Source: a virus. Taken from it: DNA of 64,000 nucleotides. The stretch's first letter is position 1; the number at the start of each line of letters is the position of its first letter. The notes beneath the pieces were generated by a model that saw only the letters and a list, made by a program, of their open reading frames with translations, did no database searches and was not told the origin of the DNA. A program made the position numbers and the translations under genes. Below are positions 1,574 through 62,055 of the stretch, one piece after another. Location of the stretch: IMG/VR virus record IMGVR_UViG_3300045988_132810, positions 1 to 64,000 of that record. One strand, 5' to 3'.

Positions 1574-1602
1574 TTGACAGTTATAATTTTGTACTGTACA
1601 AT
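1574..1602 (+). promoter_or_regulatory. sigma-70-type promoter
   Basis: TTGACA-17 nt-TACAAT; spacer holds the window-wide motif in reverse orientation (TATAATTTTGTACTG). Confidence 0.6.
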
Positions 1603-1635
1603 AAAAGAAACGAGAAATTCACAAGGGGTGATCAT

Positions 1636-2556
1636 GTGTTTTACAATGAGGAGGTAAAGATACAATTTATAAACGATTATAAAAGAAGTAGAATTGTAGC
1701 AGAGACTTCATTAACAGGAATGTTTAACAAAACATATAAATACGAACAACAAAAAGGGAAAGATTGTAATAGCTTTTCAAGAAAAGAAATATTAGCGATG
1801 TATAAAGAATTTGATGCAAAATCTGTGCATGTGCTTGAAAATTACAATGTATATTTGAAAAGCTATTCTATTTTCTGTATGCATCATGGTTTTTGTAAGA
1901 AAAATAATTATGCAGATATAAATAAAGCTATGCTGCTTCAATGCCTTGATACAGAAACATTGAATCAAAAATTCTTAACAAGGGAACAGCTTGATGATAT
2001 AGAAGATGAGTTATATAACTATACAGATAAAGCGCTTTTAGAATTGCTATGGGAAGGCATTAGCGGCAAAAGTATGGAAGATATTGTTGCTCTTAATAGA
2101 AGTATGATTAGCGAAGATAAAAAATATATATGTTTTAATGATGGACGAAAAGTTAAATTATCATCAAAATTATATAATTATTTAGACAAGGCATTTTCAG
2201 AAAAAGAATATATGTGTTATGGAACAACTATTAGGGTTAAAAAATTAATTGGAGATGACTGTCTCTATAAAGAAATGGATAATGCATATACAGTAGACTC
2301 AGACGATAAATTTTTCCGCTGGGTATATAGAAGAGTTCAAACATATAGAAAACATGTAGATATGCCATTGCTGACAATGAAGGCACTTGCTGCATCTGGG
2401 CTATTGTATAAAATTAAAAATGCAATGGAAAAAAACAATCTTGGATTAAGAGAATTTTTATATACAGAAGAAGGCAAAGCATTGGCGCAACAATATGGAT
2501 ATAAGTTAAATTCATATGTTGATGTTATTGCTAATAAATTTATAGATTTTGTATAG
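1636..2556 (+). CDS. hypothetical protein downstream of recombinase
   Basis: 306-aa ORF, GTG start 7 nt after AAGGGG RBS; family not recognised by eye. Confidence 0.6.
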   Translation: MFYNEEVKIQFINDYKRSRIVAETSLTGMFNKTYKYEQQKGKDCNSFSRKEILAMYKEFDAKSVHVLENYNVYLKSYSIFCMHHGFCKKNNYADINKAMLLQCLDTETLNQKFLTREQLDDIEDELYNYTDKALLELLWEGISGKSMEDIVALNRSMISEDKKYICFNDGRKVKLSSKLYNYLDKAFSEKEYMCYGTTIRVKKLIGDDCLYKEMDNAYTVDSDDKFFRWVYRRVQTYRKHVDMPLLTMKALAASGLLYKIKNAMEKNNLGLREFLYTEEGKALAQQYGYKLNSYVDVIANKFIDFV

Positions 2557-2588
2557 GCCGTAATGGTGCGGTCTATAATCTTAATTAA

Positions 2589-2603
2589 CAATACAAAATT
2601 ATA
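2589..2603 (+). promoter_or_regulatory. conserved intergenic motif copy (CAATACAAAATTATA)
   Basis: exact core ACAAAATTAT; lies 15 nt upstream of the -35 of the 2618 promoter. Confidence 0.6.
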
Positions 2604-2617
2604 ATTGCAAAAAATAG

Positions 2618-2986: not shown

Positions 2987-3015
2987 TTGACAAGACACAA
3001 TTATTATGGTATAAT
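2987..3015 (+). promoter_or_regulatory. sigma-70-type promoter (consensus)
   Basis: TTGACA-17 nt-TATAAT. Confidence 0.7.
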
Positions 3016-3032: not shown

Positions 3033-3048
3033 TAATACAAAATTATAG
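3033..3048 (+). promoter_or_regulatory. conserved intergenic motif copy (TAATACAAAATTATAG)
   Basis: 18 nt downstream of the -10 at 3010-3015 and 36 nt upstream of ATG 3085. Confidence 0.6.
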
Positions 3049-4432: not shown

Positions 4433-4458
4433 CTAGGGAAGAATTAAAGCTTCCCTAG
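4433..4458 (+). terminator. stem-loop after SSB-like gene (weak terminator or attenuator)
   Basis: CTAGGGAAG / CTTCCCTAG 9-bp stem; no clear T-run follows. Confidence 0.35.
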
Positions 4459-4459
4459 A

Positions 4460-4475
4460 CAATACTAAATTATAG
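4460..4475 (+). promoter_or_regulatory. conserved intergenic motif copy, variant (CAATACTAAATTATAG)
   Basis: one mismatch to consensus; 18 nt upstream of ATG 4494. Confidence 0.5.
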
Positions 4476-4493: not shown

Positions 4494-5504
4494 ATGGAAG
4501 AATTAAAAGAAATGAATTCTTCCGTTGATGGGCTACAAGATACAACATATGCGGAAGTAAAAGATCCATATGGATTTATTTATATCACAACGAATTTGAT
4601 TGATGGCAAAAGATATTTAGGCCAAAGAAAATTCTATGGAAATTGGCAAGAATATCTTGGTAGTGGTGCAGCATTTAAACAAGCAATTGACAAATATGGA
4701 AAAGAAAATTTTGTAAGAAATGTAATTGATATTGCTTATTCTGCAGAAGAATTAAATGAAAAGGAATATAATTATAGTGTTTTCTTTAATGCTGTTGAAT
4801 CTAACAATTGGTATAATCTTGTTTATGGTGGAGGAACAACGCAAGGATGAACTCCAAGTAAAGAAACAAGAAAAAAGATATCAAAAGCTGCAAAAGAAAG
4901 ACTTTCAGATCCAAATAATCATCCAATGTATGGAAGAGTAGGATTAGTAGGCGAGAATAATCCCCAGTTTAAAGTTTCTCCAAAAGAACGCATGGATGAA
5001 GAAACATATAAACAATGGTATGAAAAACATAAATTATATTGGGCAAATCCAACAACTAAAGGCAAACATATATGGATAGAAAAACAACATCCCAGTTTAG
5101 GTAAAAAAATGTCAGATGAACAAAAATTAAATCTATCAGAAAAAGCAAAAGAAAGATTTATAAATCCAAGCAATCATCCAATGTATGGGAAACATCACAC
5201 AGAAGAAGCAAAGAAAAAGATGAGTGATTCTCGTAAAGGTAGTAATTGGTGGAAATGTAGAAGAATATATTGTATAGAATTAAATCAAATTTTTTGGGGA
5301 GCAAAAGAAGTACAAAATTTATATGGATTTGATCCAAGCTCTATTACAAAGTGCTGTAGAGGTAAACAAAATTATACGTATAAACATCCACAAACAGGCG
5401 AGGCATTGCATTGGTTGTATGCGGAAGATGCAATTGAAAAAGGATATATCACACAAGAAGAGTTAGATAGATATATAAATAGTTTAAAAGGTAAAGGAGA
5501 CTGA
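4494..5504 (+). pseudogene. GIY-YIG homing endonuclease with NUMOD3-like repeats, interrupted by one in-frame TGA (4848-4850)
   Basis: N-terminal GFIYITTN..KRYLGQ (GIY-YIG); ORFs 4494-4850 and 4926-5504 are in the same frame. Reading through the TGA gives GGGTTQG*TPSKETRKKISKAAKERLSDPNNHPMYGR, continuous with three NHPMYG(K/R) repeats. Confidence 0.75.
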
Positions 5505-8983: not shown

Positions 8984-9011
8984 TTGACAAACCGCAGAAA
9001 TGTGATATACT
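8984..9011 (+). promoter_or_regulatory. sigma-70-type promoter with TGn extension
   Basis: TTGACA-16 nt-TATACT preceded by TGTGA. Confidence 0.6.
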
Positions 9012-9016: not shown

Positions 9017-9032
9017 TAGTACAAAATTATAG
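9017..9032 (+). promoter_or_regulatory. conserved intergenic motif copy (TAGTACAAAATTATAG)
   Basis: 6 nt after the -10 and 39 nt upstream of ATG 9072. Confidence 0.6.
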
Positions 9033-10212: not shown

Positions 10213-10241
10213 TTGACAAACAGAAAAACATATGGTATAAT
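10213..10241 (+). promoter_or_regulatory. sigma-70-type promoter (consensus)
   Basis: TTGACA-17 nt-TATAAT. Confidence 0.7.
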
Positions 10242-10260: not shown

Positions 10261-10276
10261 CAATACAAAATTATTT
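10261..10276 (+). promoter_or_regulatory. conserved intergenic motif copy (CAATACAAAATTATTT)
   Basis: 20 nt after the -10 and 24 nt upstream of ATG 10301. Confidence 0.55.
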
Positions 10277-10300: not shown

Positions 10301-10645
10301 ATGGCTATTCAGTATTATAGCAACCCAAACACGAAGGAAACGTTCGCCGTTCTAAGAGGAACTGAGCTTGATGCAATTAATAAGATTGATAAGTTTCTCA
10401 ATGAGTTTGACTGTTATATGATTCGTGAGAAGTACATGATGCCTAAGCAGTTTAAGGTTAAGGTCAAGCTTGCGAAAGGTGATGTGTACGACGAGGAGAA
10501 GGGCAAGATGCTTGCAAAGGAAAAGCTTATGAAGAAGTATTATAGTGCTTTTGATAAGCGAATTGATATGTTTAGAGCAGATCTGATTGCACTAAACAGT
10601 CGTGTATTTGAAACTCCAGTAGAAATTCTTGAAAATATCACTTGA
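10301..10645 (+). CDS. hypothetical protein
   Basis: 114-aa ORF after AAAGGA RBS; stop codon overlaps the next -35 box. Confidence 0.55.
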   Translation: MAIQYYSNPNTKETFAVLRGTELDAINKIDKFLNEFDCYMIREKYMMPKQFKVKVKLAKGDVYDEEKGKMLAKEKLMKKYYSAFDKRIDMFRADLIALNSRVFETPVEILENIT

Positions 10646-10670
10646 CAATGCGAAATTATTGTGGTATAAT
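10642..10670 (+). promoter_or_regulatory. sigma-70-type promoter embedding a motif variant
   Basis: TTGACA-ATGCGAAATTATTGTGG-TATAAT. Confidence 0.7.
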
Positions 10671-10748
10671 TCAGAATGTAGTCAAGAGAGAGCCAACTTG
10701 ATTGATTGAGCCGCTTGAATACATAAGAAGAAAGACTATAAGATGCAC

Positions 10749-10777
10749 TTGACATGTGACAAGTAATGTGGTAATAT
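10749..10777 (+). promoter_or_regulatory. sigma-70-type promoter
   Basis: TTGACA-17 nt-TAATAT. Confidence 0.55.
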
Positions 10778-10791
10778 GTAAGCACGCTAGA

Positions 10792-10807
10792 CAGTACAAA
10801 ATTATAG
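10792..10807 (+). promoter_or_regulatory. conserved intergenic motif copy (CAGTACAAAATTATAG)
   Basis: 13 nt upstream of ATG 10821. Confidence 0.6.
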
Positions 10808-10820: not shown

Positions 10821-11558
10821 ATGAGCCAACTGATTGATATGACTAATTGGATTATGGCAGAGCATGGAGTGCCTGATAGTAAAATCACGGTACTTAAAAG
10901 AGTTGAAAACAACAAACATGGATCTACACGCTGGTTGTGTGAGTGCTCTTGTAGTGAACATAACAAATTTATTGCAATTGGTCAAGACATTAGGAATGGT
11001 AAAGTTAGATCTTGTGGATGTTTGCAAAAAGAAGCCACAAAAAAGATGGGGCAAAGCAGGCCAACAGAAAACAAACGAGATTTGTCTGGAAAGTTTGGAA
11101 TACTTTGGACAACAAACACTAATGATGAAGTGTATTTTGACCTAGAAGATTCAGAAGAAATTTTAAAACACAGTTGGTATTTGAGTGTAAAAGGTTATCC
11201 TACTTCACAGATTAATGGAAAACCAGTTAGGTTGCACCAATTTATTGGGTGTTATAACCACGACCATAAAAATAGGAATAAATTAGACAACCGAAAATCC
11301 AATTTAAGACCTTGTACTCAACAGGAAAACACAAGGAATAGAAGCAAGAACAAAAACAATAAATCTGGATTTACTGGAGTGTATTGGGATAAGCAATATT
11401 GTAAATGGGGCGCTCAAATTAAAGTCAAACAAAAGACAATTAAATTAGGAACATTTGATGATAAAATCGAAGCGCTTATCGCAAGATTAAAGGCCGAAAA
11501 AGAAATTTACAAAGAGTTTGCTCCACAAAGAGATTTGTTTGATGAATATAATATTTGA
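10821..11558 (+). CDS. free-standing HNH endonuclease with C-terminal AP2-type DNA-binding domain
   Basis: 245 aa; HQF..HDHKNRNKLDNRKSNLR..TQQEN (HNH_3-like) followed by SGFTGVYWDKQYCKWGAQIKVKQKTIKLGTF (AP2-like). Confidence 0.7.
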   Translation: MSQLIDMTNWIMAEHGVPDSKITVLKRVENNKHGSTRWLCECSCSEHNKFIAIGQDIRNGKVRSCGCLQKEATKKMGQSRPTENKRDLSGKFGILWTTNTNDEVYFDLEDSEEILKHSWYLSVKGYPTSQINGKPVRLHQFIGCYNHDHKNRNKLDNRKSNLRPCTQQENTRNRSKNKNNKSGFTGVYWDKQYCKWGAQIKVKQKTIKLGTFDDKIEALIARLKAEKEIYKEFAPQRDLFDEYNI

Positions 11559-12757: not shown

Positions 12758-13525
12758 TTTCAGAAAGTAATTCTTTTTAAGAGATTCATACAAAGTGCTT
12801 AAGAATTACCTAATTTAAAATGTTAGGTGGATTGTATGAAAAAATGGGAAAGATTTACTCGGCAAGAGATTGAACAATTTGTAAAAGATAGTTTTAGTTA
12901 TGCTCAATTAGCAAAAAAGTGTGGATATAAAGGCGGGAGTAGTTTACAACAAATAAAGCAAATGGTAGAACAGTTTGAGCTAGACGTATCACATTTTACT
13001 GGGCAAGGGTGGCTTGCAGGAAGAACATACGAAAGTAAAAAATATATTCAGTTTAACGAATATATAAAAAGCAAATATGTCCAGACTAATAAACTTCGAA
13101 AAAAATTATTAAAAGAAGGACTTAAAGAGCATGTATGTGAATGTTGTTTAAATTCTATGTGGAATGGAGTGCCAATACCACTTGAAGTTCATCATATAGA
13201 CGGTGATAAAAACAACAATGATTTGGAAAATCTTCAATTATTGTGTCCAAATTGTCATGCATTAACTGATACTTATCGAGGAAGAAATACGAGAAGACAC
13301 AAGGAGAAAACATCAAATTGAAATCTCTTGTAGGAGCACCAAGTCAGGAAACTACTTGCGTGAATGACCCCTAAACGGCGAACAGTTCTGAGAACGCCGT
13401 ACCAATCCAACACTTGTTGGAAGTGCGTAGAGACTATACAGGGTCAACCTAAGTCGAAAGATATGGTTAAGACATAGTCCAGCCCACAACGTAGAAATAC
13501 GGCCATGGTGACATGGAGTGGGATG
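12758..13525 (+). mobile_element. group I intron (768 nt) in the tRNA-Leu(UAA) anticodon loop, carrying an HNH ORF
   Basis: Follows exon U34 and ends in G. Core-like elements are GTGCGTAGAGACTATACA (13423-13440, R-like) and AAGACATAGTCC (13469-13480, S-like). The ORF sits in the 5' part. Confidence 0.75.
12836..13321 (+). CDS. intron-encoded HNH homing endonuclease
   Basis: ATG 12836 after AGGTGG RBS; EVHHIDGDKNNNDLENLQLLCPNCH motif. Confidence 0.85.
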   Translation: MKKWERFTRQEIEQFVKDSFSYAQLAKKCGYKGGSSLQQIKQMVEQFELDVSHFTGQGWLAGRTYESKKYIQFNEYIKSKYVQTNKLRKKLLKEGLKEHVCECCLNSMWNGVPIPLEVHHIDGDKNNNDLENLQLLCPNCHALTDTYRGRNTRRHKEKTSN

Positions 13526-13635
13526 AAAATCTGCTGGTAGTAATACCGTGCGGGAGCAAAGCCCGTCTCCGCTACCACGCGAACAAATGGAATGCGTTAA
13601 GTAATGTGTGGCTGACTGACCTAAGAGTCAAATAT

Positions 13636-13709: not shown

Positions 13710-13720
13710 TTCTTTAATAT

Positions 13721-14459: not shown

Positions 14460-14475
14460 TAATACAAAATTATAG
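14460..14475 (+). promoter_or_regulatory. conserved intergenic motif copy (TAATACAAAATTATAG)
   Basis: Between tRNA-Ile and ORF 14504, inside the tRNA array. Confidence 0.6.
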
Positions 14476-17033: not shown

Positions 17034-17049
17034 CAATACAAAATTATTG
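17034..17049 (+). promoter_or_regulatory. conserved intergenic motif copy (CAATACAAAATTATTG)
   Basis: 11 nt upstream of ATG 17061. Confidence 0.6.
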
Positions 17050-18299: not shown

Positions 18300-18464
18300 A
18301 TGGATGAGCTAAAACCCTGTCCTTTTTGTGGGAATGCGCCCAATATGCGAATTACTGGATATGGAGCAGTATATGTGAGATGTCCTAACTGCGGAGTTGA
18401 AACACCTTATTATCAGAATGTTGAACTCGCAACACTTAAATGGAATATGAGAATTGAGTGTTGA
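18300..18464 (+). CDS. Lar-family-like small zinc-ribbon protein (possible restriction alleviation)
   Basis: ATG 18300; MDELKPCPFCGN...RCPNCG matches the LKPCPFCG-type N-terminus of the Lar family. Confidence 0.5.
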   Translation: MDELKPCPFCGNAPNMRITGYGAVYVRCPNCGVETPYYQNVELATLKWNMRIEC

Positions 18465-18489
18465 CAATACGAAATTATAGTGTTACAAT
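18461..18489 (+). promoter_or_regulatory. sigma-70-type promoter embedding a motif variant
   Basis: TTGACA-ATACGAAATTATAGTGT-TACAAT. Confidence 0.65.
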
Positions 18490-18524: not shown

Positions 18525-18686
18525 ATGAAAATGAAAAAATACATAATTATATACAAGGATAGAGGAAAACACAAATGGGCTGAATCAGACAGCTTAGAGA
18601 TACTACAAAGCATTTTTAGTAAATGTAGTTGGATTAAAGAATACAAAATTATTGACACATCAAATTTTAAGGAGGTAATGGATTAA
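18525..18686 (+). CDS. hypothetical small protein
   Basis: ATG 18525 after AAGGAG; contains an in-coding copy of the motif (18640-18654). Confidence 0.45.
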   Translation: MKMKKYIIIYKDRGKHKWAESDSLEILQSIFSKCSWIKEYKIIDTSNFKEVMD

Positions 18687-23178: not shown

Positions 23179-23207
23179 TTGACAATACAAAATTATTGAC
23201 ATATAAT
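23179..23207 (+). promoter_or_regulatory. sigma-70-type promoter embedding the motif
   Basis: TTGACA-ATACAAAATTATTGACA-TATAAT. Confidence 0.75.
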
Positions 23208-26131: not shown

Positions 26132-26160
26132 TTGACAATACAAAATTATTGTGATATAGT
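26132..26160 (+). promoter_or_regulatory. sigma-70-type promoter embedding the motif
   Basis: TTGACA-ATACAAAATTATTGTGA-TATAGT. Confidence 0.7.
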
Positions 26161-26181: not shown

Positions 26182-27897
26182 ATGCATTTGAAATATAAAT
26201 TAACAGGCAATAATGATACTACAAATATTTTAAAAACAGTATTAAATAATAGAGGAATTGAAAATTATAATAAATACCTAGCGTTGTGTGACAATTGTTC
26301 CGACAATTGGGATAATTTAAATTCTATAGATGAAGCAGTAAATTGTTTTGATTGTCATTTTTATAATAAGCATAAAATGGCAATTTTGTCTGACACTGAT
26401 GTTGATGGAATCACAAGTGCAACAATGATGTATCAATATATTAAACTCATGGACGCAGACTATCCAGTATCAATTATTGTGCATAAGAAGAACAAGTCAC
26501 ACGGTCTAGCATCTTGGGACTTTGATATTCCAGACAATACAAAGTTATTGATTATTCCAGATGCAGGGAGTAATGATGTGGATGAATGTAAAAAGTTAAT
26601 AAACGATGGTATTGAAGTAATTGTTCTTGATCACCATCAAGTGTCTACAGACAAATTAAATCCTGCTATTGTAGTAAACAACCAAGCATCTAATAGGTAT
26701 CCAAATAAGGAAGCATGTGGCGCTCATGTTACATATAATTTCCTGCAAGCATTAGATGAGTGTTATTGGAATGATATTTGTGAAGATCATTTTACTGACC
26801 TAGTGGCATTAGCAGATATTTCAGATGTGATGTCAATGAGATCATTTAATACTCGTGCGATGGTTAACTATGGAATAAATCATATTAACAATAAAATGTT
26901 TCAAGAGATCCTTAAGGCGCAGGATTTTTCTACAAAAGGGATTGTATCTCCATTTACAATTGCATTCTACGTTACTCCTTTGATTAATGCGTTTCTACGT
27001 AGTGCTTCATTTGAGGAGCGAGAGTTGCTGGTTAATGCTTTTTGTGAATGTGAAGAAAAAACTTTTGAATATATAAAACGTGGAGAAAATTTTCCTATTG
27101 AAGAAAATATTTATCAACATTGCGTTAGGATTGCAAAATCATATAAATCGAAGCAAGATCGCGCTAGAGACAAAGCATACAAGGCATTAATGGCTTCTAA
27201 TGATTATTCTAATGATAAAGTTGCTATTGTAGATGCGACAGGTGAATTAAATTCAGCATATACAGGGCTTGTTGCAATTAAGATGTCTGAGGTGCTGAAT
27301 AAACCTGTACTTCTTGTTATAGAAACAGATAATGGATTTGCTGGAAGCGGTAGAGTTTTTGATTATTGCCCAATTGAAGACTTCAGAGAACTTGTCGATG
27401 AGTGCCCGGAATCTACTATGTCACAGGGCCATGCACAAGCATTCGGTCTTTGTTTGACTGACATTAATAAGGCACGAGAATGGTTTAATGAAAATCTTAA
27501 AGACGTATCTTTTGAAAAAATATATGTAGTAGATTTCATTGTTGATGCAGAAGATGTATCAATTTCGTGGTGCCAAGAACTTGATAAATATAAATCAACT
27601 TTTGCACATGGAGTAGACGAACCATTGTGGTTGATTAAAGATTTATATATATCTAATGATAATGCCAAAATTGTCGGCAAGAACGATGATACAATTCAAA
27701 TTTATGACGAGGATACGAATATCAAATATGTTATGTTCAAATGCGATGAATCAAATGAAGTGTTTGATTGGATAAATAATAACTTTGCAGGAGAAGAGAC
27801 GTATATTAATGTAATTGGTACATTAGGCATTAACGTATATAATGGACAAGTTTCTCCACAAGTATTAATTAAAGAATGTGAGATTAGAAAGGATTAA
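26182..27897 (+). CDS. RecJ-like DHH/DHHA1 single-strand exonuclease
   Basis: DTDVDGITS, IPDAGSND, VLDHHQ motifs in order. Confidence 0.75.
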   Translation: MHLKYKLTGNNDTTNILKTVLNNRGIENYNKYLALCDNCSDNWDNLNSIDEAVNCFDCHFYNKHKMAILSDTDVDGITSATMMYQYIKLMDADYPVSIIVHKKNKSHGLASWDFDIPDNTKLLIIPDAGSNDVDECKKLINDGIEVIVLDHHQVSTDKLNPAIVVNNQASNRYPNKEACGAHVTYNFLQALDECYWNDICEDHFTDLVALADISDVMSMRSFNTRAMVNYGINHINNKMFQEILKAQDFSTKGIVSPFTIAFYVTPLINAFLRSASFEERELLVNAFCECEEKTFEYIKRGENFPIEENIYQHCVRIAKSYKSKQDRARDKAYKALMASNDYSNDKVAIVDATGELNSAYTGLVAIKMSEVLNKPVLLVIETDNGFAGSGRVFDYCPIEDFRELVDECPESTMSQGHAQAFGLCLTDINKAREWFNENLKDVSFEKIYVVDFIVDAEDVSISWCQELDKYKSTFAHGVDEPLWLIKDLYISNDNAKIVGKNDDTIQIYDEDTNIKYVMFKCDESNEVFDWINNNFAGEETYINVIGTLGINVYNGQVSPQVLIKECEIRKD

Positions 27898-36538: not shown

Positions 36539-36554
36539 CAATACAAAATTATAG
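36539..36554 (+). promoter_or_regulatory. conserved intergenic motif copy (CAATACAAAATTATAG)
   Basis: 13 nt after the -10 and 11 nt upstream of ATG 36566. Confidence 0.6.
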
Positions 36555-37239: not shown

Positions 37240-37255
37240 CAATACAAAATTATAT
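37240..37255 (+). promoter_or_regulatory. conserved intergenic motif copy (CAATACAAAATTATAT)
   Basis: 14 nt upstream of ATG 37270, directly before AGGAGG. Confidence 0.6.
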
Positions 37256-42532: not shown

Positions 42533-43552
42533 CATGCTGTTGCTTATAGTCTGTTATCTTATCTTACCGCATGGATGAAAGTATATTATCCAGTAGAATT
42601 TATGACCGCACTTTTGACAGCGAAGTCGGACAATACTTCAAAGCTTAGTGTTATTATTACAGATTGTCATAGAATGGGAATCAAAGTACTTCCGCCTAAG
42701 ATTAATGAGTCTGAATTTTCTTTTAAGGCTAAGCCAGAGACTAAAGAAATCCTTTTTGGTTTTGGCGCAGTAAAAGGCATTGGCGAGTCAGTAATTACTA
42801 AGATTATTGAGAACCAGCCATATAGCAGCTTTGATGATTATCTGTCAAAAATCCAAGATAAAGCGGCCACAATTGCTCTAATTAAAGCTGGTGCTTTCCC
42901 TACTTCTAATAAAATGAAGCTGATGAGAAAGTATGCTACCTTATCGTATGATAAGAAAGAATATAAACCAGTTCAATCATATGGGACAAAAGCAAAATTA
43001 TTGCTAAATTGGGATATCAACGTAGATGATTACAAGGCTGGCAAAAAAGTAGATAAAGAAGCCGTGCTGCAATTGTATAATGCAAAGCGTAAAGAAAAGT
43101 TCGACCAAGTGCAAGAGGTCAAATATAAAGCGTATATGACAGAGTTCCAACAAAAATATGCTAGAGATCAATTCCTATGGGAATACGAAAGCTTATCAAT
43201 GTTTTTGACAGAGAACCCATTGCAAGAAGGTGTAGATTTAATAAACGCTAATTGGGATGATGTCCCGAATGGAGAAAAAACAGTTGTCTTGTGTGTTATA
43301 TCAGACATAAAGCGCAAGAAAGATAAAAACAACAATCCCTTCGCATATCTAGATTTGATTACTTCTGATAGAATTATTGAAGCGACTATTTGGAGTAGAC
43401 AACTAAAAGAATATTTTGATCTTATCTCGAAGGGCAAGTGCCTTGCAATTCTTGGAAGGAAAGAAGACGATCATTTGTTCGTTGAAAAAGTTAAACCCTA
43501 CACCGTTTGGCTCGAAAAAATAAAACATACACGTGCCAAAAAGACATCTTGA
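42533..43552 (+). CDS. dnaE: DNA polymerase III alpha subunit, exon 2
   Basis: Same frame as exon 1 after intron removal; HhH-like and OB-fold-like C-terminal parts. Confidence 0.85.
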   Translation, partial: HAVAYSLLSYLTAWMKVYYPVEFMTALLTAKSDNTSKLSVIITDCHRMGIKVLPPKINESEFSFKAKPETKEILFGFGAVKGIGESVITKIIENQPYSSFDDYLSKIQDKAATIALIKAGAFPTSNKMKLMRKYATLSYDKKEYKPVQSYGTKAKLLLNWDINVDDYKAGKKVDKEAVLQLYNAKRKEKFDQVQEVKYKAYMTEFQQKYARDQFLWEYESLSMFLTENPLQEGVDLINANWDDVPNGEKTVVLCVISDIKRKKDKNNNPFAYLDLITSDRIIEATIWSRQLKEYFDLISKGKCLAILGRKEDDHLFVEKVKPYTVWLEKIKHTRAKKTS

Positions 43553-43577
43553 CAGCACAAAATTATTGTGATATAAT
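43549..43577 (+). promoter_or_regulatory. sigma-70-type promoter embedding a motif variant
   Basis: TTGACA-GCACAAAATTATTGTGA-TATAAT; the -35 overlaps the dnaE stop codon. Confidence 0.7.
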
Positions 43578-43976: not shown

Positions 43977-43992
43977 CAATACAAAATTATTG
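43977..43992 (+). promoter_or_regulatory. conserved intergenic motif copy (CAATACAAAATTATTG)
   Basis: Starts right after the upstream stop; 9 nt upstream of ATG 44002. Confidence 0.6.
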
Positions 43993-47171: not shown

Positions 47172-47711
47172 ATGAATTATTTAGGAATCAATAAATGCTC
47201 AATCGCAGACGGCCCCGGAGTACGAGTAGTACTCTGGGTGTCTGGATGTAATGTACATTGTAATAATTGTCAAAACCCTCAGTCATGGGATTTTAATGCG
47301 GGCGAACAATTTGATGATCTTGCGAAGCAAAAGCTGTTTGACGCATTAAATAAGCCATGGGTACAAGGTTTAACATTATCTGGTGGCCATCCTTTAGAAT
47401 ATGAAAATCTGCAAGAAGTATATTGTATCATTAATGAATTTAGAGAGAAATTTCAAGACAAAGATATCTGGCTATATACCGGATACACATTAACAATCAA
47501 TGACTTTGATACATCGGTTGATGTTTGTTTCGACAATAGTCTATTGACAAATTACATTCTTGCAATGTGCGATGTTGTAGTTGATGGCCCATATATAGAT
47601 TCTATGCGAGATATTACATTACCATTTCGTGGGAGCACAAATCAGCGTCTTATTGACGTTCATGAGACAATCAAACAACAAGAGATTGTTTTATACAATA
47701 CAAAACTATAA
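47172..47711 (+). CDS. nrdG: anaerobic RNR activating enzyme (radical SAM)
   Basis: ATG 47172; GPGVRVVLWVSGCNVHCNNCQNP (CxxxCxxC). Confidence 0.85.
   Translation: MNYLGINKCSIADGPGVRVVLWVSGCNVHCNNCQNPQSWDFNAGEQFDDLAKQKLFDALNKPWVQGLTLSGGHPLEYENLQEVYCIINEFREKFQDKDIWLYTGYTLTINDFDTSVDVCFDNSLLTNYILAMCDVVVDGPYIDSMRDITLPFRGSTNQRLIDVHETIKQQEIVLYNTKL
47696..47711 (+). promoter_or_regulatory. conserved motif copy, variant (CAATACAAAACTATAA)
   Basis: Overlaps the last codons of nrdG; 17 nt upstream of ATG 47729. Confidence 0.45.
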
Positions 47712-51304: not shown

Positions 51305-51499
51305 ATGAAATACATAACAGTAAAACAGTTATATGAAAAATTAAACGCAGAGCATCCGGGATTAATAGGAATTAATAGTGTTTACGAACTTGTCAAACGT
51401 AAAGATTTCCCATCAGTAAGAAACGGACGAAAATTTCTTATTATTGAGGACAAAGTTGATGAATGGTTTGAAAAGAAAAGTTTAGCTTATAAAAGATAG
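51305..51499 (+). CDS. excisionase-family-like helix-turn-helix DNA-binding protein
   Basis: 64 aa; ITVKQLYEKL...SVYELVKRKDFPSVRNGRKFLI pattern; located upstream of the integrase. Confidence 0.55.
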   Translation: MKYITVKQLYEKLNAEHPGLIGINSVYELVKRKDFPSVRNGRKFLIIEDKVDEWFEKKSLAYKR

Positions 51500-51515
51500 A
51501 TAAACTATATTGAAT

Positions 51516-51826
51516 TGTGGTCAAAAGATGTGGTACAATAAAATTGTGGTAAATGATGTGGTCATTCAGCAAAAACATATCACTTAAATCTAGGAGAATC
51601 AATGACTTGAGTTGTTTTTATTTATGGACACTTATGATTCATATAGCCTGAGAAACAGCCATAAAAACATAATAGAACAGCTATTCACAAACACAAGTCT
51701 AAAGCATTGGAGCTAGAATATATGCTGGTTTAAGCTTGCTTTGGAAGAAAATTGTATTCACTCGATATCACCAATAATCTTGTACTGTTATGATAAATAA
51801 TCAAAAAATTGTGGTATTATTGTGGT
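51516..51826. repeat. two clusters of TGTGGT(A/C) direct repeats (candidate integrase arm-type sites / attP region)
   Basis: TGTGGT at 51516, 51529, 51545 and 51557, then again at 51810 and 51821 (plus TGTGAA at 51832), flanking about 250 bp. Confidence 0.5.
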
Positions 51827-51889
51827 ACGATTGTGAATAAAAATTGCCATTGACCATATTGTTTTCATCAAATATAATAATGATATGAA

Positions 51890-51905
51890 CTATAATTTTG
51901 TATTG
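51890..51905 (-). promoter_or_regulatory. conserved motif copy in reverse orientation
   Basis: CTATAATTTTGTATTG is the reverse complement of CAATACAAAATTATAG; 24 nt upstream of integrase ATG 51929. Confidence 0.5.
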
Positions 51906-51928
51906 TTAGAAAATGGAGGAATATATTT

Positions 51929-53071
51929 ATGGCAAAGAAAAGAAGTAATGGGGAAGGATCGTGGACGCAAAGAGACAATGGCACTTGGAAATTGTCTGTA
52001 GCTTATAAAGGAATAGGAAGAAAATATTTTTACGGGGACAAGCAAACTTGTTTAAAGAAAAAACGTGAATTTGAAGTATTACTTAATAAAAATATCGTTG
52101 GGAATAAGGATATATTATTTGAAGATTTTATTCATTCTTGGCTTTTCACAGTCAAACAGCCAACATTGAAACCTTCATCATTTGATAGAATGGAACGTGT
52201 ATTAAAAGAAAAACATGTGACAAGATTATATAATTTAGAAATGAAACAAATAGATGGACATTTAATTCAAACTTTTATTATTAATAAAATGAAAGACGAT
52301 GGGCTCGCATATGAAACAATTAAGAAAACATGTTCTGTATTAGGAGAAATATTCAATTATGCATTACTACGAGAAAAGATTGATAGAAACCCGATGGGGG
52401 AAGTTAGACTACCAAAAAAGTCGCTATTTGTACAAAAAGAAAGAAGATATTTGTCTCAACAAGAAAGAGAAAAATTAATACAAACATGCTATTCTAGGCA
52501 TAAAAATGGAGTGCGTATTTATAAGAATGGCGCTTTGTATGTATTTTTACTATATACTGGATGCAGAGTTGGAGAAGCTTTAGCTTTAAGGTGGAGCGAC
52601 ATTGATTTTGAAACGCGTACTGCGAAAATTTATAAAACTGTCGCTCGTATCAATGACAGAAGCAAGAGTAAAAATAAGACCATTGAAATTGTATCCAATT
52701 CTACAAAAACAGGAGTCGCAAGAACTATTTATTTGTCAGACATGGCAATTGCTGCGTTAAGAGATCTGCAAGAGCAGATTGGATGGGAGCCAAACGGATA
52801 CATTGTCCATGTGAATCATACAAAACCAATTTGTAAAGTCGCTGCACAAAACACATTTGATCGTATTATTAATAGAGCAGGAATAAAGCATTGTGGAGTC
52901 CACGCACTTAGGCACTCTTTTGTGAGCTTAATGTTACACAACAATGTCCCGATAACAATGATATCTCAAATGGTTGGGCATTTAAATATAAATATGACAA
53001 TGCAGGTCTATTCTCATTTGCTAGACGAAACTAAAATTGAGTCTATGTCAATTATAAAAAACATTAAATAA
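51929..53071 (+). CDS. site-specific tyrosine integrase
   Basis: 380 aa; YTGCRVGEALAL (Arg), HALRHSFVS (His-x-x-Arg), MQVYSH (Tyr). Confidence 0.85.
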   Translation: MAKKRSNGEGSWTQRDNGTWKLSVAYKGIGRKYFYGDKQTCLKKKREFEVLLNKNIVGNKDILFEDFIHSWLFTVKQPTLKPSSFDRMERVLKEKHVTRLYNLEMKQIDGHLIQTFIINKMKDDGLAYETIKKTCSVLGEIFNYALLREKIDRNPMGEVRLPKKSLFVQKERRYLSQQEREKLIQTCYSRHKNGVRIYKNGALYVFLLYTGCRVGEALALRWSDIDFETRTAKIYKTVARINDRSKSKNKTIEIVSNSTKTGVARTIYLSDMAIAALRDLQEQIGWEPNGYIVHVNHTKPICKVAAQNTFDRIINRAGIKHCGVHALRHSFVSLMLHNNVPITMISQMVGHLNINMTMQVYSHLLDETKIESMSIIKNIK

Positions 53072-53228: not shown

Positions 53229-53390
53229 ATGACATGCAAACCGGGAACAAAATCCATTACATTTAGGCTTCCAGAAGAAGAAAAATTCCAAATAGAGCTT
53301 GCAGCTCACGCAGAGAATAGGTCAGTGAATAATTGGATACTAAATGTGATTAGAATTCATTTAAAAGCGCAGCAGGGCGCAAAAAAATAG
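53229..53390 (+). CDS. 53-aa ribbon-helix-helix (Arc/CopG-like) protein
   Basis: ATG 53229 after AAAGGTGG; KSITFRLPEEEKFQIELAAHAENRSVNNWILNVI fits a beta-strand plus two-helix RHH pattern. Confidence 0.5.
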   Translation: MTCKPGTKSITFRLPEEEKFQIELAAHAENRSVNNWILNVIRIHLKAQQGAKK

Positions 53391-53419
53391 GGACTAGAGA
53401 TTTTATTCTCTAGTCCCTA
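53391..53419. terminator. bidirectional terminator between convergent modules
   Basis: GGGACTAGAGA-TTTTAT-TCTCTAGTCCC perfect 11-bp hairpin between the plus-strand and minus-strand gene ends. Confidence 0.75.
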
Positions 53420-60875: not shown

Positions 60876-60884
60876 CTGCCTTTA

Positions 60885-61976
60885 TTATGAAATACTTACT
60901 TGTCGTATAGGTTTATTAATAATTAACTCTCCGTTTACGACCTCTGCATCAAATTCATTAAATGGGCATACGCTTCCATCGTCTTCAAGCGTAAGTACAC
61001 CATTGGAGACGTCCGTACCAATTTCTAGCTTCACGTCCTTGAGTTCTCCTCTTACAATCATTTTGTGTCCCTCAACTTTGATATTAGTCCAAATTGGAGG
61101 GTTCTTAGTTGTGTCGCCTTTGATTTTTAATACCTTGCCTTCTACCCAAACGGTTAAGCCATCTTTAAGGTCATAATCATTTAGCAGGCCATCTGCTACT
61201 TTCATTGGATATCTAAACTCAATTTTTAATGTTCCGGTACCATTCGCGGAAAAATAATTAGTTCCGGGGAGCAACGTTGGAAACATAAAATTGAAATCAT
61301 CGTCAAAGATTCTCTTCTCATTCGTAGAATATACAACAAAATTATTATCTATTGTAACTGTTTCGTCCTGTTGTAAATTCTTAAACTCCGTCTCATTATT
61401 CAATGATTTGTTTTTAATGAGTAAATTTCCATGAGATGAGCCATTCTGAAATGTTAACTTTGGATAAATATAAGAATAAACGTCATCACTTTGGTTGTCT
61501 ATTGCGAATTCAGTCTCTCCTGCAATTTTGATTTCTACAGGATATACTTTTGAATACGCCCACGGACTTACTGCAGTAAATGTTGCTACGATGCCAATAA
61601 CTCTTGCATCCATCTTCTGAAGCTGCACATTCGTGAATCTACCAAGATATGAGCACACAACATCACCATCTTTGTCGCAGACATCCATCCATGCGTTGCT
61701 TCTAGAACCAGTAAGCCAACGCAATGTGTTTCTAACCTTGTATGGGCCAATATCAGACCCGTCTACTTCGATAAATGTTACAGACGGAGTTGCGACAGAA
61801 TTATATTTCGCACCATAGTCTGTGCGCATTGTACCATCATAGCTATCAGTAAAAACAGGCTCCATATCTAAGTATGAATCCACTGTCCCGTTATCTGGAT
61901 TGAATGTACTTACTACAAGCTCTAAATCATAATTTGTTTGATTGCGGAAACGAATTTTAGGATGATATATCGCCAA
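60885..61976 (-). CDS. distal tail protein (Dit)
   Basis: 363 aa between the tape measure and Tal genes; typical siphovirus gene order. Confidence 0.65.
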   Translation of the reverse strand: MAIYHPKIRFRNQTNYDLELVVSTFNPDNGTVDSYLDMEPVFTDSYDGTMRTDYGAKYNSVATPSVTFIEVDGSDIGPYKVRNTLRWLTGSRSNAWMDVCDKDGDVVCSYLGRFTNVQLQKMDARVIGIVATFTAVSPWAYSKVYPVEIKIAGETEFAIDNQSDDVYSYIYPKLTFQNGSSHGNLLIKNKSLNNETEFKNLQQDETVTIDNNFVVYSTNEKRIFDDDFNFMFPTLLPGTNYFSANGTGTLKIEFRYPMKVADGLLNDYDLKDGLTVWVEGKVLKIKGDTTKNPPIWTNIKVEGHKMIVRGELKDVKLEIGTDVSNGVLTLEDDGSVCPFNEFDAEVVNGELIINKPIRQVSIS

Positions 61977-62016
61977 GATATCACACCTCCTACTAACTAC
62001 TTGAAATTATATAAAT

Positions 62017-62042
62017 AGGAGAGAGCTGTTGTGCTCTCTCCT
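62017..62042 (-). terminator. stem-loop between the tape measure and Dit genes
   Basis: AGGAGAGAGC/GCTCTCTCCT 10-bp stem; on the minus strand it directly follows a motif copy; weak T-run. Confidence 0.4.
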
Positions 62043-62055
62043 ATAATTTTGTGTT
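62041..62055 (-). promoter_or_regulatory. conserved motif copy on the minus strand (AACACAAAATTATAG)
   Basis: Reverse complement of CTATAATTTTGTGTT; same orientation as the tail genes; 64 nt upstream of the Dit start. Confidence 0.5.

What the first reader, a model, noticed from the sequence alone, without database searches (positions are those of the whole stretch)
1574..62055. About 25 copies of a 16-nt motif CAATACAAAATTAT(A/T)G at gene starts, in two architectural classes
Seen, class 1: the motif fills the spacer of consensus promoters (TTGACAATACAAAATTATTGTGATATAAT and variants at 10642, 18461, 23179, 26132 and 43549; reversed at 1574). Seen, class 2: the motif ends in TATAG or TATTG with no -35/-10 pair and sits 9-40 nt upstream of a start codon, often directly against the Shine-Dalgarno sequence. 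Class 2 copies start at 3033, 3311, 4460, 9017, 10261, 10792, 14460, 17034, 20014, 36539, 37240, 39010, 43977 and 47696. Six of these lie 6-20 nt downstream of a separate sigma-70 promoter. One copy lies on the minus strand in the tail module (62041), one is reversed before the integrase (51890), and one lies inside a coding region (18640-18654). Inference: this could be an operator for a phage regulator that controls early promoters and blocks or processes transcripts. It could be a -10-like promoter for a phage-modified RNA polymerase (compare T4 late TATAAATA). It could also be a 5'-UTR RNA element for translational control or RNase processing.
Basis: partly seen in the sequence, partly recalled or inferred. 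Interest (0 to 1): 0.7.

Follow-up and report, generated by a model that had tools for sequence, protein, structure and literature searches.

The report
Repressor binding boxes of an SPbeta-like phage
The repeated 16-letter motif is most likely the DNA docking site of this gut phage's own dormancy repressor, a relative of the Bacillus SPbeta repressor MrpR/SroF encoded in the same window, so it is a new example of a known control system, not a new kind of signal.

Summary
CAATACAAAATTATWG occurs 7 times exactly, 18 times at <=1 mismatch and 26 times at <=2 mismatches, against 0, 0.04 and 0.55 expected. 23 of 26 copies lie in the 12% of the window that is non-coding, and 23 of 26 point the way the local genes are read.

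The window is the early region, plus the start of the tail genes, of a ~150-kb SPbeta-like temperate gut phage. ORF 1636-2556 is a homologue of MrpR/SroF (YopR), the recombinase-fold master repressor of SPbeta and phi3T. That repressor binds a repeated asymmetric A/T-rich box (SPBRE).

I extracted SPBRE from SPbeta. It sits in the same promoter register and also occurs beside ribosome-binding sites. The box here is about 20 bp (T-N-N-A-CAATACAAAATTATWG). It is kept in 21 close relatives. Phages whose repressor is only 46-48% identical use CAATACAAAATTAATG instead.

Best reading: an operator family for the MrpR-like repressor. What differs from SPbeta is a 4-5 fold higher density and nine promoter-less copies inside operons, which resemble mycobacteriophage L5 'stoperators'. 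That roadblock role is inferred, not shown. The phage-polymerase promoter and RNA-element readings are not supported.

Verdict: new member of a known kind, moderate interest.

The parts
1636..2556 (+). Gene for the MrpR/SroF (YopR)-family repressor candidate, 306 aa, GTG start
   Evidence: Pfam MrpR_N_CB 47.7 bits (cut-off 27); MrpR_C_cat 23.6 bits, below its cut-off of 27. PDB sequence hits: 9rd5 E=2.7e-14, 8a0a MrpR E=8.8e-10. AlphaFold2 model pLDDT 88; best fold match 9rd5_H 'Phi3T SroF bound to DNA', TM 0.70. Homologues are 304-308 aa.
593..1567 (+). YopP-like tyrosine-recombinase-family gene directly upstream of the repressor gene, as yopP lies upstream of yopR in SPbeta. Alternative but less likely box binder.
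   Evidence: Pfam Phage_integrase 125 bits. Same gene order in all relatives. SPbeta order yopP-yopQ-yopR.
1574..1602 (+). Promoter of the repressor gene (TTGACA-17-TACAAT) with a reversed box (1581-1596, minus strand) filling the spacer. Probable autoregulation.
   Evidence: The reversed box is kept in this promoter in relatives with 58-100% identical repressor.
2589..2604 (+). Box between the terminator hairpin of the repressor gene (2552-2577) and the -35 of the next promoter (2618-2646)
   Evidence: Same layout as the SPBRE copies upstream of the -35 of aimR and yonX in SPbeta.
10642..10670 (+). Class 1 promoter TTGACA-17-TATAAT; box 10646-10661 in the spacer
18461..18489 (+). Class 1 promoter TTGACA-17-TACAAT; box 18465-18480 in the spacer
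23179..23207 (+). Class 1 promoter TTGACA-17-TATAAT; box 23183-23198 in the spacer
26132..26160 (+). Class 1 promoter TTGACA-17-TATAGT; box 26136-26151 in the spacer. Preceded by a terminator hairpin; drives the RecJ-like operon.
43549..43577 (+). Class 1 promoter TTGACA-17-TATAAT; box 43553-43568 in the spacer
3033..3048 (+). Class 2a box, 17 nt after the -10 of promoter 2987-3015. That promoter's spacer holds a degenerate box at 2991-3006.
9017..9032 (+). Class 2a box, 5 nt after the -10 of promoter 8984-9011
10261..10276 (+). Class 2a box, 19 nt after the -10 of promoter 10213-10241
10792..10807 (+). Class 2a box, 14 nt after the -10 of promoter 10749-10777, 13 nt before the HNH/AP2 endonuclease gene
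17034..17049 (+). Class 2a box, 14 nt after the -10 of promoter 16992-17019
36539..36554 (+). Class 2a box, 13 nt after the -10 of promoter 36498-36525
51890..51905 (-). Reversed box, 11 nt after the -10 of the integrase promoter (51850-51878) and 23 nt before the integrase start codon
3311..3326 (+). Class 2b box with no promoter within 80 nt, 20 nt before the YorF-like gene. Kept at the orthologous place in distant relatives.
4460..4475 (+). Class 2b box directly after a conserved hairpin (4433-4459), before the GIY-YIG endonuclease gene
14460..14475 (+). Class 2b box, 10 nt after tRNA-Ile, before ORF 14486/14504-15250
18639..18654 (+). Class 2b box in the last codons of a 53-codon ORF, 34 nt before the next start codon
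20014..20029 (+). Class 2b box that starts the base after a stop codon, 14 nt before the RNA-ligase gene
37240..37255 (+). Class 2b box, 14 nt before a start codon
39010..39025 (+). Class 2b box, 14 nt before the LAGLIDADG endonuclease gene
43977..43992 (+). Class 2b box that starts the base after a stop codon, 9 nt before the NT5C-like gene
47696..47711 (+). Class 2b box (2 mismatches) overlapping the stop codon of the NrdG-like gene, 17 nt before the next start
26535..26550 (+). Box with 1 mismatch inside the RecJ-like coding sequence
51772..51787 (-). Box (2 mismatches) on the minus strand in the attP-like region between xis and int. Role unclear.
62041..62056 (-). Only box in the tail-gene block. 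It is co-oriented with those genes, overlaps the stop codon of the 643-aa gene and is followed by a terminator-like hairpin. Kept in about 16 relatives.

Best explanation
The motif is the core of a roughly 20-bp asymmetric operator (T-N-N-A-CAATACAAAATTAT-W-G). This is the phage's own version of the 'SPbeta repeated element' (SPBRE). It would be bound by the phage's master lysogeny repressor, the MrpR/SroF (YopR)-family protein with a tyrosine-recombinase fold encoded at 1636-2556.

By analogy with phi3T SroF, one monomer clamps around each box.
- Where the box fills the spacer of a consensus host promoter (six promoters, including the repressor's own), the bound repressor keeps RNA polymerase off and blocks initiation.
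- Where the box lies 5-19 nt after the -10 of a separate promoter (seven sites), it blocks promoter escape or early elongation.
- Where it lies in promoter-less gaps inside long early operons, squeezed between a stop codon and the next Shine-Dalgarno sequence (nine sites), it most likely acts as an orientation-dependent roadblock. This would stop read-through into lytic genes in the prophage, as L5 'stoperators' do.
- On induction an antirepressor would strip the repressor from all sites at once.

Shown here: enrichment, site classes, strand and position bias, the repressor homologue and its fold, the shared architecture with SPBRE, and conservation with one box/repressor co-change in relatives.

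Inferred: that this protein binds these boxes, that binding represses, and, least certain (about 0.4-0.5), that promoter-less copies block elongation.
For: (1) ORF 1636-2556 belongs to the MrpR/SroF family. Pfam MrpR_N_CB scores 47.7 bits. PDB sequence hits are 9rd5 at E=2.7e-14 and MrpR 8a0a at E=8.8e-10. The AlphaFold2 model (pLDDT 88) best matches 'Phi3T SroF bound to DNA' with TM 0.70, followed by MrpR and YopR.

(2) Gene context is SPbeta-like. A YopP-like recombinase lies upstream. YorF, the AAA_24 protein (YorG position), YorH, a helicase-sized ORF in the YorI position (no Pfam match), RecJ (YorK) and PolIII-alpha (YorL) lie downstream. Contigs are about 150 kb.

(3) In SPbeta, ChAP-seq, EMSA and reporters show that MrpR binds the 15-bp SPBRE at about 10 distant promoters (PMC10516654). 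SroF reads up to 24 bp of an asymmetric A/T-rich box as a monomer (bioRxiv 10.1101/2025.11.27.690993).

(4) I extracted SPBRE from the SPbeta sequence. It reads tAGACAAATACAAAwAATATGTATATAAT. It fills the -35/-10 spacer in the same register as class 1 here (TTGACAATACAAAATTATTGTGATATAAT). It shares GACAA, ATACAAA and the terminal TG. It also occurs pressed against the SD of yopV, yopM and yonX, and upstream of the -35 of aimR and yonX, like box 2589 here. All 12 exact copies are co-oriented with their genes.

(5) The repressor's own promoter carries a box. Five boxes cluster within 1.75 kb around the repressor gene.

(6) Conservation: 21 viral contigs with an 83-100% identical repressor carry 9-15 boxes per 21 kb, 236 of 258 on the gene strand. 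Boxes persist at orthologous gene boundaries while the flanks diverge.

(7) Co-change: loci with a 58-60% identical repressor keep TATWG. Three loci with a 46-48% identical repressor use CAATACAAAATTAATG throughout, in both classes.

(8) Promoter-less boxes are as well conserved as promoter boxes (mean 1.0 versus 1.2 mismatches). They lack any -10 at the class 1 register and have poor -35 hexamers. They are therefore under selection as boxes, not as promoters.

(9) Boxes are about ten times denser in the early region than in 22 kb of late genes across 34 relatives.
Against: There are no binding or expression data for this phage, so every functional step rests on homology and layout.

The repressor is only about 20-24% identical to the studied proteins, and its MrpR_C_cat Pfam score (23.6 bits) is below the cut-off.

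The box/repressor co-change amounts to one evolutionary event between two clades.

A neighbouring recombinase-family protein (593-1567) could be the binder instead.

A roadblock role has not been reported for MrpR/SroF; the two papers read do not mention roadblock or elongation.

DNA binding alone does not explain why a roadblock should so often abut the Shine-Dalgarno sequence. Genome compaction is a sufficient explanation but is unproven.

The copy inside the RecJ-like gene and the two copies near attP have no clear role.
Confidence: 0.75

Rival explanations
1. The box is a promoter for a phage-encoded or phage-modified RNA polymerase or sigma factor. It would resemble T7-type promoters that end in TATAG, or T4 late TATAAATA, with transcripts starting at or just after the 3' G.
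For: The site is asymmetric, about 20 bp, co-oriented with genes and lies just upstream of gene starts. TAATAC...TATAG superficially recalls the two ends of the T7 promoter (my recollection, not tested). SPbeta-type phages are known to encode the single-subunit polymerase YonO (gene present in SPbeta).
Against: No RNA polymerase or sigma-factor domain was found in about 50 window ORFs scanned. In several copies the SD begins 0-2 nt after the box, so a start at the box end would remove or truncate it. Class 1 copies sit inside host promoters, and two copies are reversed relative to the gene they precede. Boxes are about ten times rarer in late-gene DNA. One box (62041) is followed at once by a terminator-like hairpin. 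The homologous SPBRE is bound by the repressor in vivo.
Confidence: 0.05
2. The box acts as RNA in the 5' untranslated region. It could be an A/U-rich translation enhancer, a binding site for a translational repressor (T4 RegA-like), or an RNase processing signal.
For: There is strong strand bias. 15 of 16 class 2 copies would be transcribed in the sense orientation. The box ends 9-39 nt, often 11-14 nt, before the start codon, directly against the SD.
Against: Class 1 copies and box 2589 lie upstream of the predicted transcription start, so they are not in the RNA. The repressor-promoter and integrase copies are reversed. There is no Rfam match at any box. Predicted folding of 15 leaders is no more stable than shuffles (mean z +0.31), and the weak CAAUA/UAUUG stem is broken without compensation in the TATAG half of the copies. 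In SPbeta the same SD-adjacent layout occurs at sites bound as double-stranded DNA by MrpR.
Confidence: 0.07
3. The boxes are, or are also, recombination sites that mark cassette boundaries. They would be short shared sequences, possibly used by the neighbouring YopP-like recombinase, at which gene cassettes are exchanged between related phages.
For: Among 27 related loci, 71% of gene boundaries with a box coincide with a homology breakpoint, against 45% of boundaries without one (odds ratio 3.0). Breakpoints lie within 25 nt of a box 4 times more often than random positions. Homology to 13-14 relatives ends exactly at the 3' edge of boxes 4460 and 10792.
Against: The loci are related, so boundaries are counted repeatedly. 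Box-bearing gaps are longer (median 73 versus 12 nt), which alone raises the chance of a breakpoint. The clearest cases are insertions of free-standing homing endonuclease genes, which would target any roomy intergenic gap. There is no inverted-repeat core or paired-site layout typical of tyrosine-recombinase substrates. This reading does not explain class 1 promoter embedding or the repressor homologue.
Confidence: 0.08
4. Promoter-less copies are decaying remnants of duplicated class 1 promoters and have no function of their own.
For: The 5' flank of many class 2 copies looks like a degraded -35 hexamer (TAGA, TTAA instead of TTGA).
Against: The box core is as intact in promoter-less copies as in promoters (mean 1.0 versus 1.2 mismatches of 16), while no trace of the -10 remains. 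The copies are kept at orthologous positions, and they switch to the clade-specific variant, in relatives whose repressor is only 46-60% identical.
Confidence: 0.03

Closest known systems
SPBRE (SPbeta repeated element; Phi3TRE in phi3T) bound by the master repressor MrpR / SroF (YopR) of Bacillus subtilis SPbeta-family phages
   Same: The repressor is homologous by sequence and fold. The box is a repeated asymmetric A/T-rich sequence confined to the early and regulatory part of a large temperate phage. It fills the -35/-10 spacer of host-type promoters in the same register, with partly the same sequence (GACAA..ATACAAA..TG). Further copies lie against the SD or just upstream of a -35. All copies are co-oriented with genes. 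A recombinase-family gene lies just upstream of the repressor gene.
   Different: The host clade differs: human-gut metagenomes, with one hit in a Faecalimonas MAG, not Bacillus. The repressor is only about 20-24% identical. The box sequence differs in its 3' half. Density is 26 per 64 kb here against 12 exact copies per 134 kb in SPbeta. Nine copies have no promoter at all, a class I did not find in SPbeta. The repressor gene has its own box-bearing promoter directly after the recombinase-family gene, whereas in SPbeta yopQ lies between yopP and yopR. No arbitrium genes were seen in the window or in 10 kb to its left. Integration is by a tyrosine integrase with xis, not the serine recombinase SprA.
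Operator/stoperator system of cluster A mycobacteriophages (L5 gp71; TipsytheTRex repressor)
   Same: There are more than 20 copies of one asymmetric site per genome. Some lie in early promoters and most lie in short intergenic gaps. Orientation is tightly correlated with the direction of transcription. The repressor is monomeric and buries a large DNA surface (PMC9283540; SroF monomer). Counts and layout here match this pattern better than SPbeta does.
   Different: The repressor fold is unrelated (HTH plus 'stoperator' domain versus tyrosine-recombinase fold). The sites are 13 bp and G+C-rich versus about 20 bp and A/T-rich. Elongation block and its orientation dependence were shown experimentally for L5 and are only inferred here.
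Start-associated sequences of cluster K mycobacteriophages
   Same: Both are a conserved short motif immediately upstream of many start codons (from my own knowledge, not checked here).
   Different: Those motifs include the ribosome-binding site itself and are not found inside promoters. Here the box stops before the SD, also sits in promoter spacers, and comes with a cognate repressor homologue.

Membership tests
SPBRE / MrpR-SroF repressor-operator system | The phage encodes an MrpR/SroF-family protein (core-binding plus catalytic-like domain, tyrosine-recombinase fold) | tested here: met
   Pfam MrpR_N_CB 47.7 bits, above the cut-off of 27; MrpR_C_cat 23.6 bits, just below 27. phmmer to 9rd5 E=2.7e-14, 8a0a E=8.8e-10. 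Model pLDDT 88; top Foldseek hits 9rd5, 8a0a, 8bj6, 9rgl at E<=1e-10, with true recombinases only at E>=3e-5.
SPBRE / MrpR-SroF repressor-operator system | One asymmetric A/T-rich box of 15-26 bp repeated at many distant sites of the early region | tested here: met
   26 copies against 0.55 expected. Box of about 20 bp. 25 copies in 53 kb of early DNA and 1 in 10.6 kb of late DNA; 1-2 per 22 kb of late DNA in 34 relatives.
SPBRE / MrpR-SroF repressor-operator system | The box overlaps host-type promoters of early genes | tested here: met
   Six promoters scoring 11-12 of 12 carry the box in the spacer. The five forward copies share one register; the reversed copy in the repressor's own promoter sits 3 nt closer to the -10. 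Same register as SPBRE in the yonP, yorE, yorM, yorZ and yosX promoters.
SPBRE / MrpR-SroF repressor-operator system | The repressor physically binds the box and represses transcription | not testable with these tools
   Shown only for SPbeta and phi3T. Indirect support here: a box in the repressor's own promoter, and a box variant that changes with the repressor clade.
SPBRE / MrpR-SroF repressor-operator system | Recombinase catalytic residues are lost, so the protein is a DNA binder and not an enzyme | tested here: inconclusive
   Profile comparison with the neighbouring true recombinase-family protein gave no alignment, so residues could not be mapped. By eye the TGxR box reads GISGKS, which is an inference only.
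SPBRE / MrpR-SroF repressor-operator system | SPbeta-like genome context (sro-operon neighbours, yor replication genes) | tested here: met
   The YopP-like gene is directly upstream. YorF, AAA_24 and YorH Pfam families lie downstream, followed by RecJ and PolIII-alpha. No AimR/AimP was seen, so arbitrium control is not established.
L5-type operator/stoperator system | Asymmetric sites lie both in promoters and in short intergenic gaps, oriented with transcription | tested here: met
   6 promoter-embedded, 7 just downstream of promoters, 9 promoter-less intercistronic. 23 of 26 co-oriented, P ~4e-5. 236 of 258 on the gene strand in relatives.
L5-type operator/stoperator system | The repressor is homologous to gp71 (HTH plus stoperator domain) | tested here: not met
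   The candidate repressor has a tyrosine-recombinase fold. The resemblance is in how it may work, not in family membership.
L5-type operator/stoperator system | Bound repressor stops elongating RNA polymerase in an orientation-dependent way | not testable with these tools
   Known for L5 (PMC9283540). Here it is only inferred from position and orientation.
Single-subunit phage RNA polymerase promoters (T7-like) or other phage-polymerase promoters | A cognate phage polymerase or sigma gene, and promoters serving middle or late genes | tested here: not met
   No such domain in the window ORFs scanned. Boxes are nearly absent from late genes. The rest of the roughly 150-kb genome was not scanned.
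Structured cis-regulatory RNA (Rfam-type leader element) | Conserved secondary structure, or a match to a described RNA family | tested here: not met
   No Rfam hit at any box. Leader folding z-scores average +0.31.

The most novel reading that the evidence does not exclude
A large family of SPbeta-like gut phages may have independently arrived at the mycobacteriophage 'stoperator' strategy with an unrelated repressor. Hundreds of repressor clusters occur in metagenomes. In this reading, a monomeric recombinase-fold clamp (MrpR/SroF type) is loaded on dozens of co-oriented, promoter-less boxes inside operons. It silences the prophage by blocking elongation as well as initiation. Because the same boxes sit at cassette junctions, they may also channel the exchange and insertion of gene cassettes and homing endonuclease genes.
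Probability: 0.35. Interest if true: 0.55.

Novelty: new member of a known kind. Interest (0 to 1): 0.36.

Why it matters
The finding gives a concrete, testable regulatory map for a widespread but unstudied group of roughly 150-kb temperate phages of human-gut Firmicutes. The map has a candidate master repressor, its operator sequence, six repressible promoters, and about sixteen further sites.

It extends the MrpR/SroF-SPBRE system well beyond Bacillus. It also provides natural box variants (TATWG versus TAATG) paired with diverged repressors, which is useful for working out how this unusual recombinase-fold repressor reads DNA.

If the promoter-less copies prove to be roadblocks, it would be a second, independent origin of stoperator-type silencing. 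Otherwise this is a well-explained operator family and not a new kind of element.

Tried and rejected
- Megablast of 20 kb against 50,697 phage records found nothing.
- The closest annotated phage by PolIII-alpha is Clostridium phage Amboise (53% identity). It has neither the motif nor any dominant repeat, so it was no help.
- The T7-like promoter idea (TAATAC...TATAG) was dropped. No polymerase was found, the SD abuts the box, and boxes are scarce in late genes.
- The RNA hairpin and leader-structure idea was dropped.
- PHROGs gave no function for the small proteins downstream of boxes, so no antirepressor (Sar-like) candidate could be named.
- The hhalign comparison of the repressor family with the neighbouring recombinase gave no alignment, so catalytic residues could not be compared.
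- Two exact-protein look-ups for the 643-aa tail gene failed. Related loci were used instead.
- The scan of species-representative genomes found only one relative, a Faecalimonas MAG contig of 162 kb. The host assignment is therefore weak.
- A second protein search from a distant homologue returned only the same large clade (>=66% identity), so no third box variant was obtained.
- The idea that the hairpin at 4433-4459 plus a bound repressor forms a conditional terminator was considered. It was rejected on geometry: a polymerase stalled at the box would not yet have transcribed the 3' arm.
- No intron models were found in the gaps of the split PolIII and NrdD genes.

Full report
**1. The observation**

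The pattern CAATACAAAATTATWG is real and far above chance.
- 7 exact copies, 0.00 expected.
- 18 copies with at most one mismatch, 0.04 expected.
- 26 copies with at most two mismatches, 0.55 expected.
- 37 copies with at most three mismatches, 5.2 expected.

Its core TACAAAATTAT is the commonest 11-mer of the window. Aligning the 26 copies shows that conservation extends four bases to the 5' side. A is present just before the motif in 24 of 26 copies and T three bases earlier in 18 of 26. Conservation stops abruptly after the 3' G. The unit is therefore an asymmetric box of about 20 bp.

Three copies were missed: 2589, 26535 and 51772. 23 of 26 copies lie in the 12.3% of the window that does not code for protein (P about 2e-18). 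23 of 26 point in the direction in which the local genes are read (P about 4e-5).

**2. Site classes **

- Class 1. The box fills the spacer of a near-perfect host-type promoter, TTG[ACAATACAAAATTATTG]TGATATAAT. The five forward copies, in the promoters at 10642, 18461, 23179, 26132 and 43549, share one register. A reversed copy lies in the promoter at 1574.
- Class 2a. The box starts 5-19 nt after the -10 hexamer of a separate consensus promoter: 3033, 9017, 10261, 10792, 17034 and 36539. A reversed copy at 51890 follows the integrase promoter.
- Class 2b. No promoter lies within 80 nt. The box is squeezed between the end of one gene and the Shine-Dalgarno sequence of the next: 3311, 4460, 14460, 18639, 20014, 37240, 39010, 43977 and 47696.
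- Others. 2589 lies 13 nt upstream of a -35. 26535 lies inside the RecJ-like gene. 51772 lies in the attP-like region. 62041 is the only copy among the tail genes.

Class 2b copies have no -10 at the class 1 register and poor -35 hexamers. Their cores are nevertheless as intact as those of class 1 (mean 1.0 versus 1.2 mismatches).

**3. What the window is**

It has no close match among deposited phages. Its PolIII-alpha is 53% identical to that of Clostridium phage Amboise, which lacks the motif.

Exact-protein look-ups place the window on 148-155-kb contigs from human-gut metagenomes. The plus-strand block 1-53390 carries:
- replication and nucleotide-metabolism genes (SSB/YorF-like, AAA_24, YorH, RecJ, NAD ligase, a Pif1/UvrD-type helicase, split PolIII-alpha, split NrdD plus NrdG, dUTPase);
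- a tRNA cluster;
- RNA-repair genes;
- several homing endonucleases;
- xis and a tyrosine integrase.

The minus-strand block from 53428 carries tail genes. The gene families YorF and YorH, and the order of the replication genes, are those of Bacillus phage SPbeta.

**4. The key gene**

ORF 1636-2556 (306 aa) follows a recombinase-family gene (593-1567) and lies directly behind the promoter with the reversed box.
- It matches the Pfam domain MrpR_N_CB above threshold and MrpR_C_cat just below it.
- It matches the solved structures of phi3T SroF (9rd5, E=2.7e-14) and of SPbeta MrpR/YopR (8a0a and 8bj6, E about 1e-9).
- An AlphaFold2 model built on 40 homologues has pLDDT 88. Its best structural match is 'Phi3T SroF bound to DNA' (TM 0.70), then MrpR, YopR and the SroF-Sar complex. 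Genuine recombinases follow nine orders of magnitude behind.

MrpR/SroF is the master repressor of SPbeta-family prophages.
- ChAP-seq, EMSA and reporter assays show that it binds the 15-bp 'SPbeta repeated element' (SPBRE) at about ten distant promoters (PMC10516654).
- The phi3T protein binds a 26-bp asymmetric A/T-rich box as a monomer that nearly encircles the DNA. It is released by a small antirepressor (bioRxiv 10.1101/2025.11.27.690993).

**5. Direct comparison with SPBRE**

I extracted SPBRE from the SPbeta sequence, starting from the ten genes with ChAP-seq peaks. Twelve exact copies of A[CT]AAAWAATATGTAT exist, all co-oriented with the downstream gene.
- In the yonP, yorE, yorM, yorZ and yosX promoters the element reads tAGACAAATACAAAtAATATGTATATAAT. 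It fills the spacer from the last bases of the -35 to just before the -10, exactly as class 1 does here. It shares GACAA, ATACAAA and the terminal TG with the window box, about 14 of 20 positions with one gap (my alignment by eye).
- At yopV, yopM and the second yonX copy the element is pressed against the SD, like class 2.
- At aimR and the first yonX copy it lies just upstream of a -35, like box 2589.

Two things differ. The density is 26 per 64 kb here against 12 exact copies per 134 kb in SPbeta. Promoter-less copies are present here, and I did not find clear examples in SPbeta.

**6. Relatives**

- Twenty-one viral contigs of 87-160 kb encode a repressor 83-100% identical to the window's. 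They carry 9-15 boxes per 21 kb around it. 236 of 258 boxes are on the gene strand. The exceptions are the copy in the repressor's promoter and, in one subgroup, a copy just after the repressor gene.
- The repressor family is large: 162 and 740 clusters in two searches, nearly all from metagenomes. One relative lies on a 162-kb contig binned with a Faecalimonas MAG, which is a weak hint at the host.
- Loci whose repressor is 58-60% identical keep the same box.
- Three loci whose repressor is 46-48% identical use CAATACAAAATTAATG consistently, in both promoter-embedded and SD-adjacent copies. This is a co-change of protein clade and box, although it amounts to a single event.
- Boxes persist at orthologous gene boundaries, such as upstream and downstream of the YorF-like gene, while the surrounding intergenic sequence diverges.
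- In 22 kb of late-gene DNA from 34 relatives there are only one or two boxes.

**7. Mechanism**

The best-supported reading is that the boxes are operators of the MrpR-like repressor.
- At class 1 promoters a bound monomer would cover the -35 and spacer and block initiation. This includes negative autoregulation at 1574.
- At class 2a sites it would sit at about +1 to +35 and block escape or early elongation.
- For class 2b, the most plausible role is a roadblock against read-through in the prophage.

The roadblock reading rests on four observations. The sites are promoter-less. They are under selection as boxes. They are almost always co-oriented with transcription. The family's repressor is a clamp-like monomer with a very large DNA interface.

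This is the logic of the operator/stoperator system of mycobacteriophage L5. There, more than twenty asymmetric sites in promoters and short intergenic gaps are bound by a monomeric repressor, and they stop elongation only in one orientation (PMC9283540).

Box 2589 fits this role. It lies between the terminator of the constitutively needed repressor gene and the next lytic promoter.

The tight fit against the SD can be explained by compaction. In several cases the whole gap consists of stop codon, box, SD and start codon. Binding, repression and especially the elongation block are inferences; none was measured.

**8. Rivals**

- Phage-polymerase promoter. This is unlikely. No polymerase or sigma gene was found in the window. 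The SD often starts 0-2 nt after the box. Nothing is conserved downstream of it. Boxes occur inside host promoters and in reverse at two promoters. Boxes are rare in late DNA. One box is followed at once by a terminator-like hairpin.
- RNA element. This is unlikely. Class 1 copies and 2589 are not transcribed. Two copies are reversed. There is no Rfam match. Leader folding is no better than for shuffles, with mean z +0.31.
- Promoter decay. This does not fit the equal conservation of promoter-less cores or their retention, with the clade-specific variant, in distant relatives.
- Recombination or cassette-boundary role. This has some support. 71% of box-bearing boundaries are homology breakpoints against 45% of others. 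Breaks fall exactly at the 3' edge of boxes 4460 and 10792. However, the loci are not independent and box-bearing gaps are longer. The clearest cases are homing-endonuclease insertions. I keep it as a possible side effect, not the main function.

**9. Verdict**

The finding is real and biologically meaningful, but it is largely explained by a known system. It is the SPBRE-type operator family of an SPbeta-like phage from the human gut, with its MrpR/SroF-type repressor encoded in the same window.

The new points are the host range, the box sequence and its clade variant, the high density, and the promoter-less co-oriented copies that make the layout resemble L5 stoperators.

I rate it as a new member of a known kind, of moderate interest (0.36). 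I give a 0.35 chance that the stoperator-like reading is right, and that reading would deserve about 0.55.

Noticed in passing
window 13635-16911: Cluster of 11-12 tRNA genes (Arg, Leu, Met x2, Tyr, Ile x2, Thr, Phe, Gln, Gly, plus one found only by Rfam at 16350-16421). A 'skipping-rope' RNA (RF02924, 77.9 bits) lies at 15282-15361 in the middle of the cluster.
   Followed up: partly
window 51305-53071: Integration module. It comprises an xis-like HTH_17 ORF (51305-51499), an attP-like gap with six or seven TTGTGGTA-type direct repeats (51513-51570 and 51808-51835, probable arm-type sites) and a tyrosine integrase (51929-53071). A bidirectional terminator at 53388-53419 separates the early block from the tail block.
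   Followed up: partly
window 39995-43552 and 44593-47166: PolIII-alpha is split into two ORFs (39995-42325 and 42530-43552, gap 204 nt). NrdD is also split (44593-45903 and 46042-47166, gap 138 nt). No Rfam intron model matches either gap even at E<=1.
   Followed up: partly
window 4433-4459; L146 12776-12803; L147 12791-12811; L149 13122-13147: A strong hairpin (-12 to -22 kcal/mol) without a U-tract abuts the 5' edge of the box downstream of the YorF-like gene. The structure is kept in four lineages with quite different stem sequences. Its role is unknown; it could be an mRNA end, a processing signal or a weak terminator.
   Followed up: partly
window 4494-4850, 10821-11558, 12827-13321, 39040-40017: Four free-standing homing endonuclease genes: GIY-YIG, HNH/AP2, HNH and LAGLIDADG. 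Three sit directly downstream of a box. The GIY-YIG and HNH/AP2 genes are absent from many relatives, and homology ends exactly at the 3' edge of the box.
   Followed up: partly
window 18910-23158 and 30638-31477: An RNA-repair-like gene set next to the tRNA cluster: class-V aminotransferase (cysteine-desulfurase-like), RNA ligase, RlaP-like nucleotidyltransferase, AAA_33 kinase and a Thg1-like tRNA-His guanylyltransferase.
   Followed up: no
window 49159-50412: A xanthine/uracil permease family gene (417 aa, Pfam E=5e-50) lies inside the phage early operon, next to guanylate kinase and dUTPase. It is a possible auxiliary nucleobase-uptake gene.
   Followed up: no
window 10642-10807: Two consensus promoters lie in tandem, about 105 nt apart. 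The first (10642) has the box in its spacer and the second (10749) is followed by a box. No ORF lies between them, so a short non-coding transcript is possible.
   Followed up: no
L148, L149, L150 (relatives with 46-48% identical repressor): These phages use the box variant CAATACAAAATTAATG. In L148 and L149 there is no box in the repressor gene's own promoter, so autoregulation may differ between clades.
   Followed up: partly
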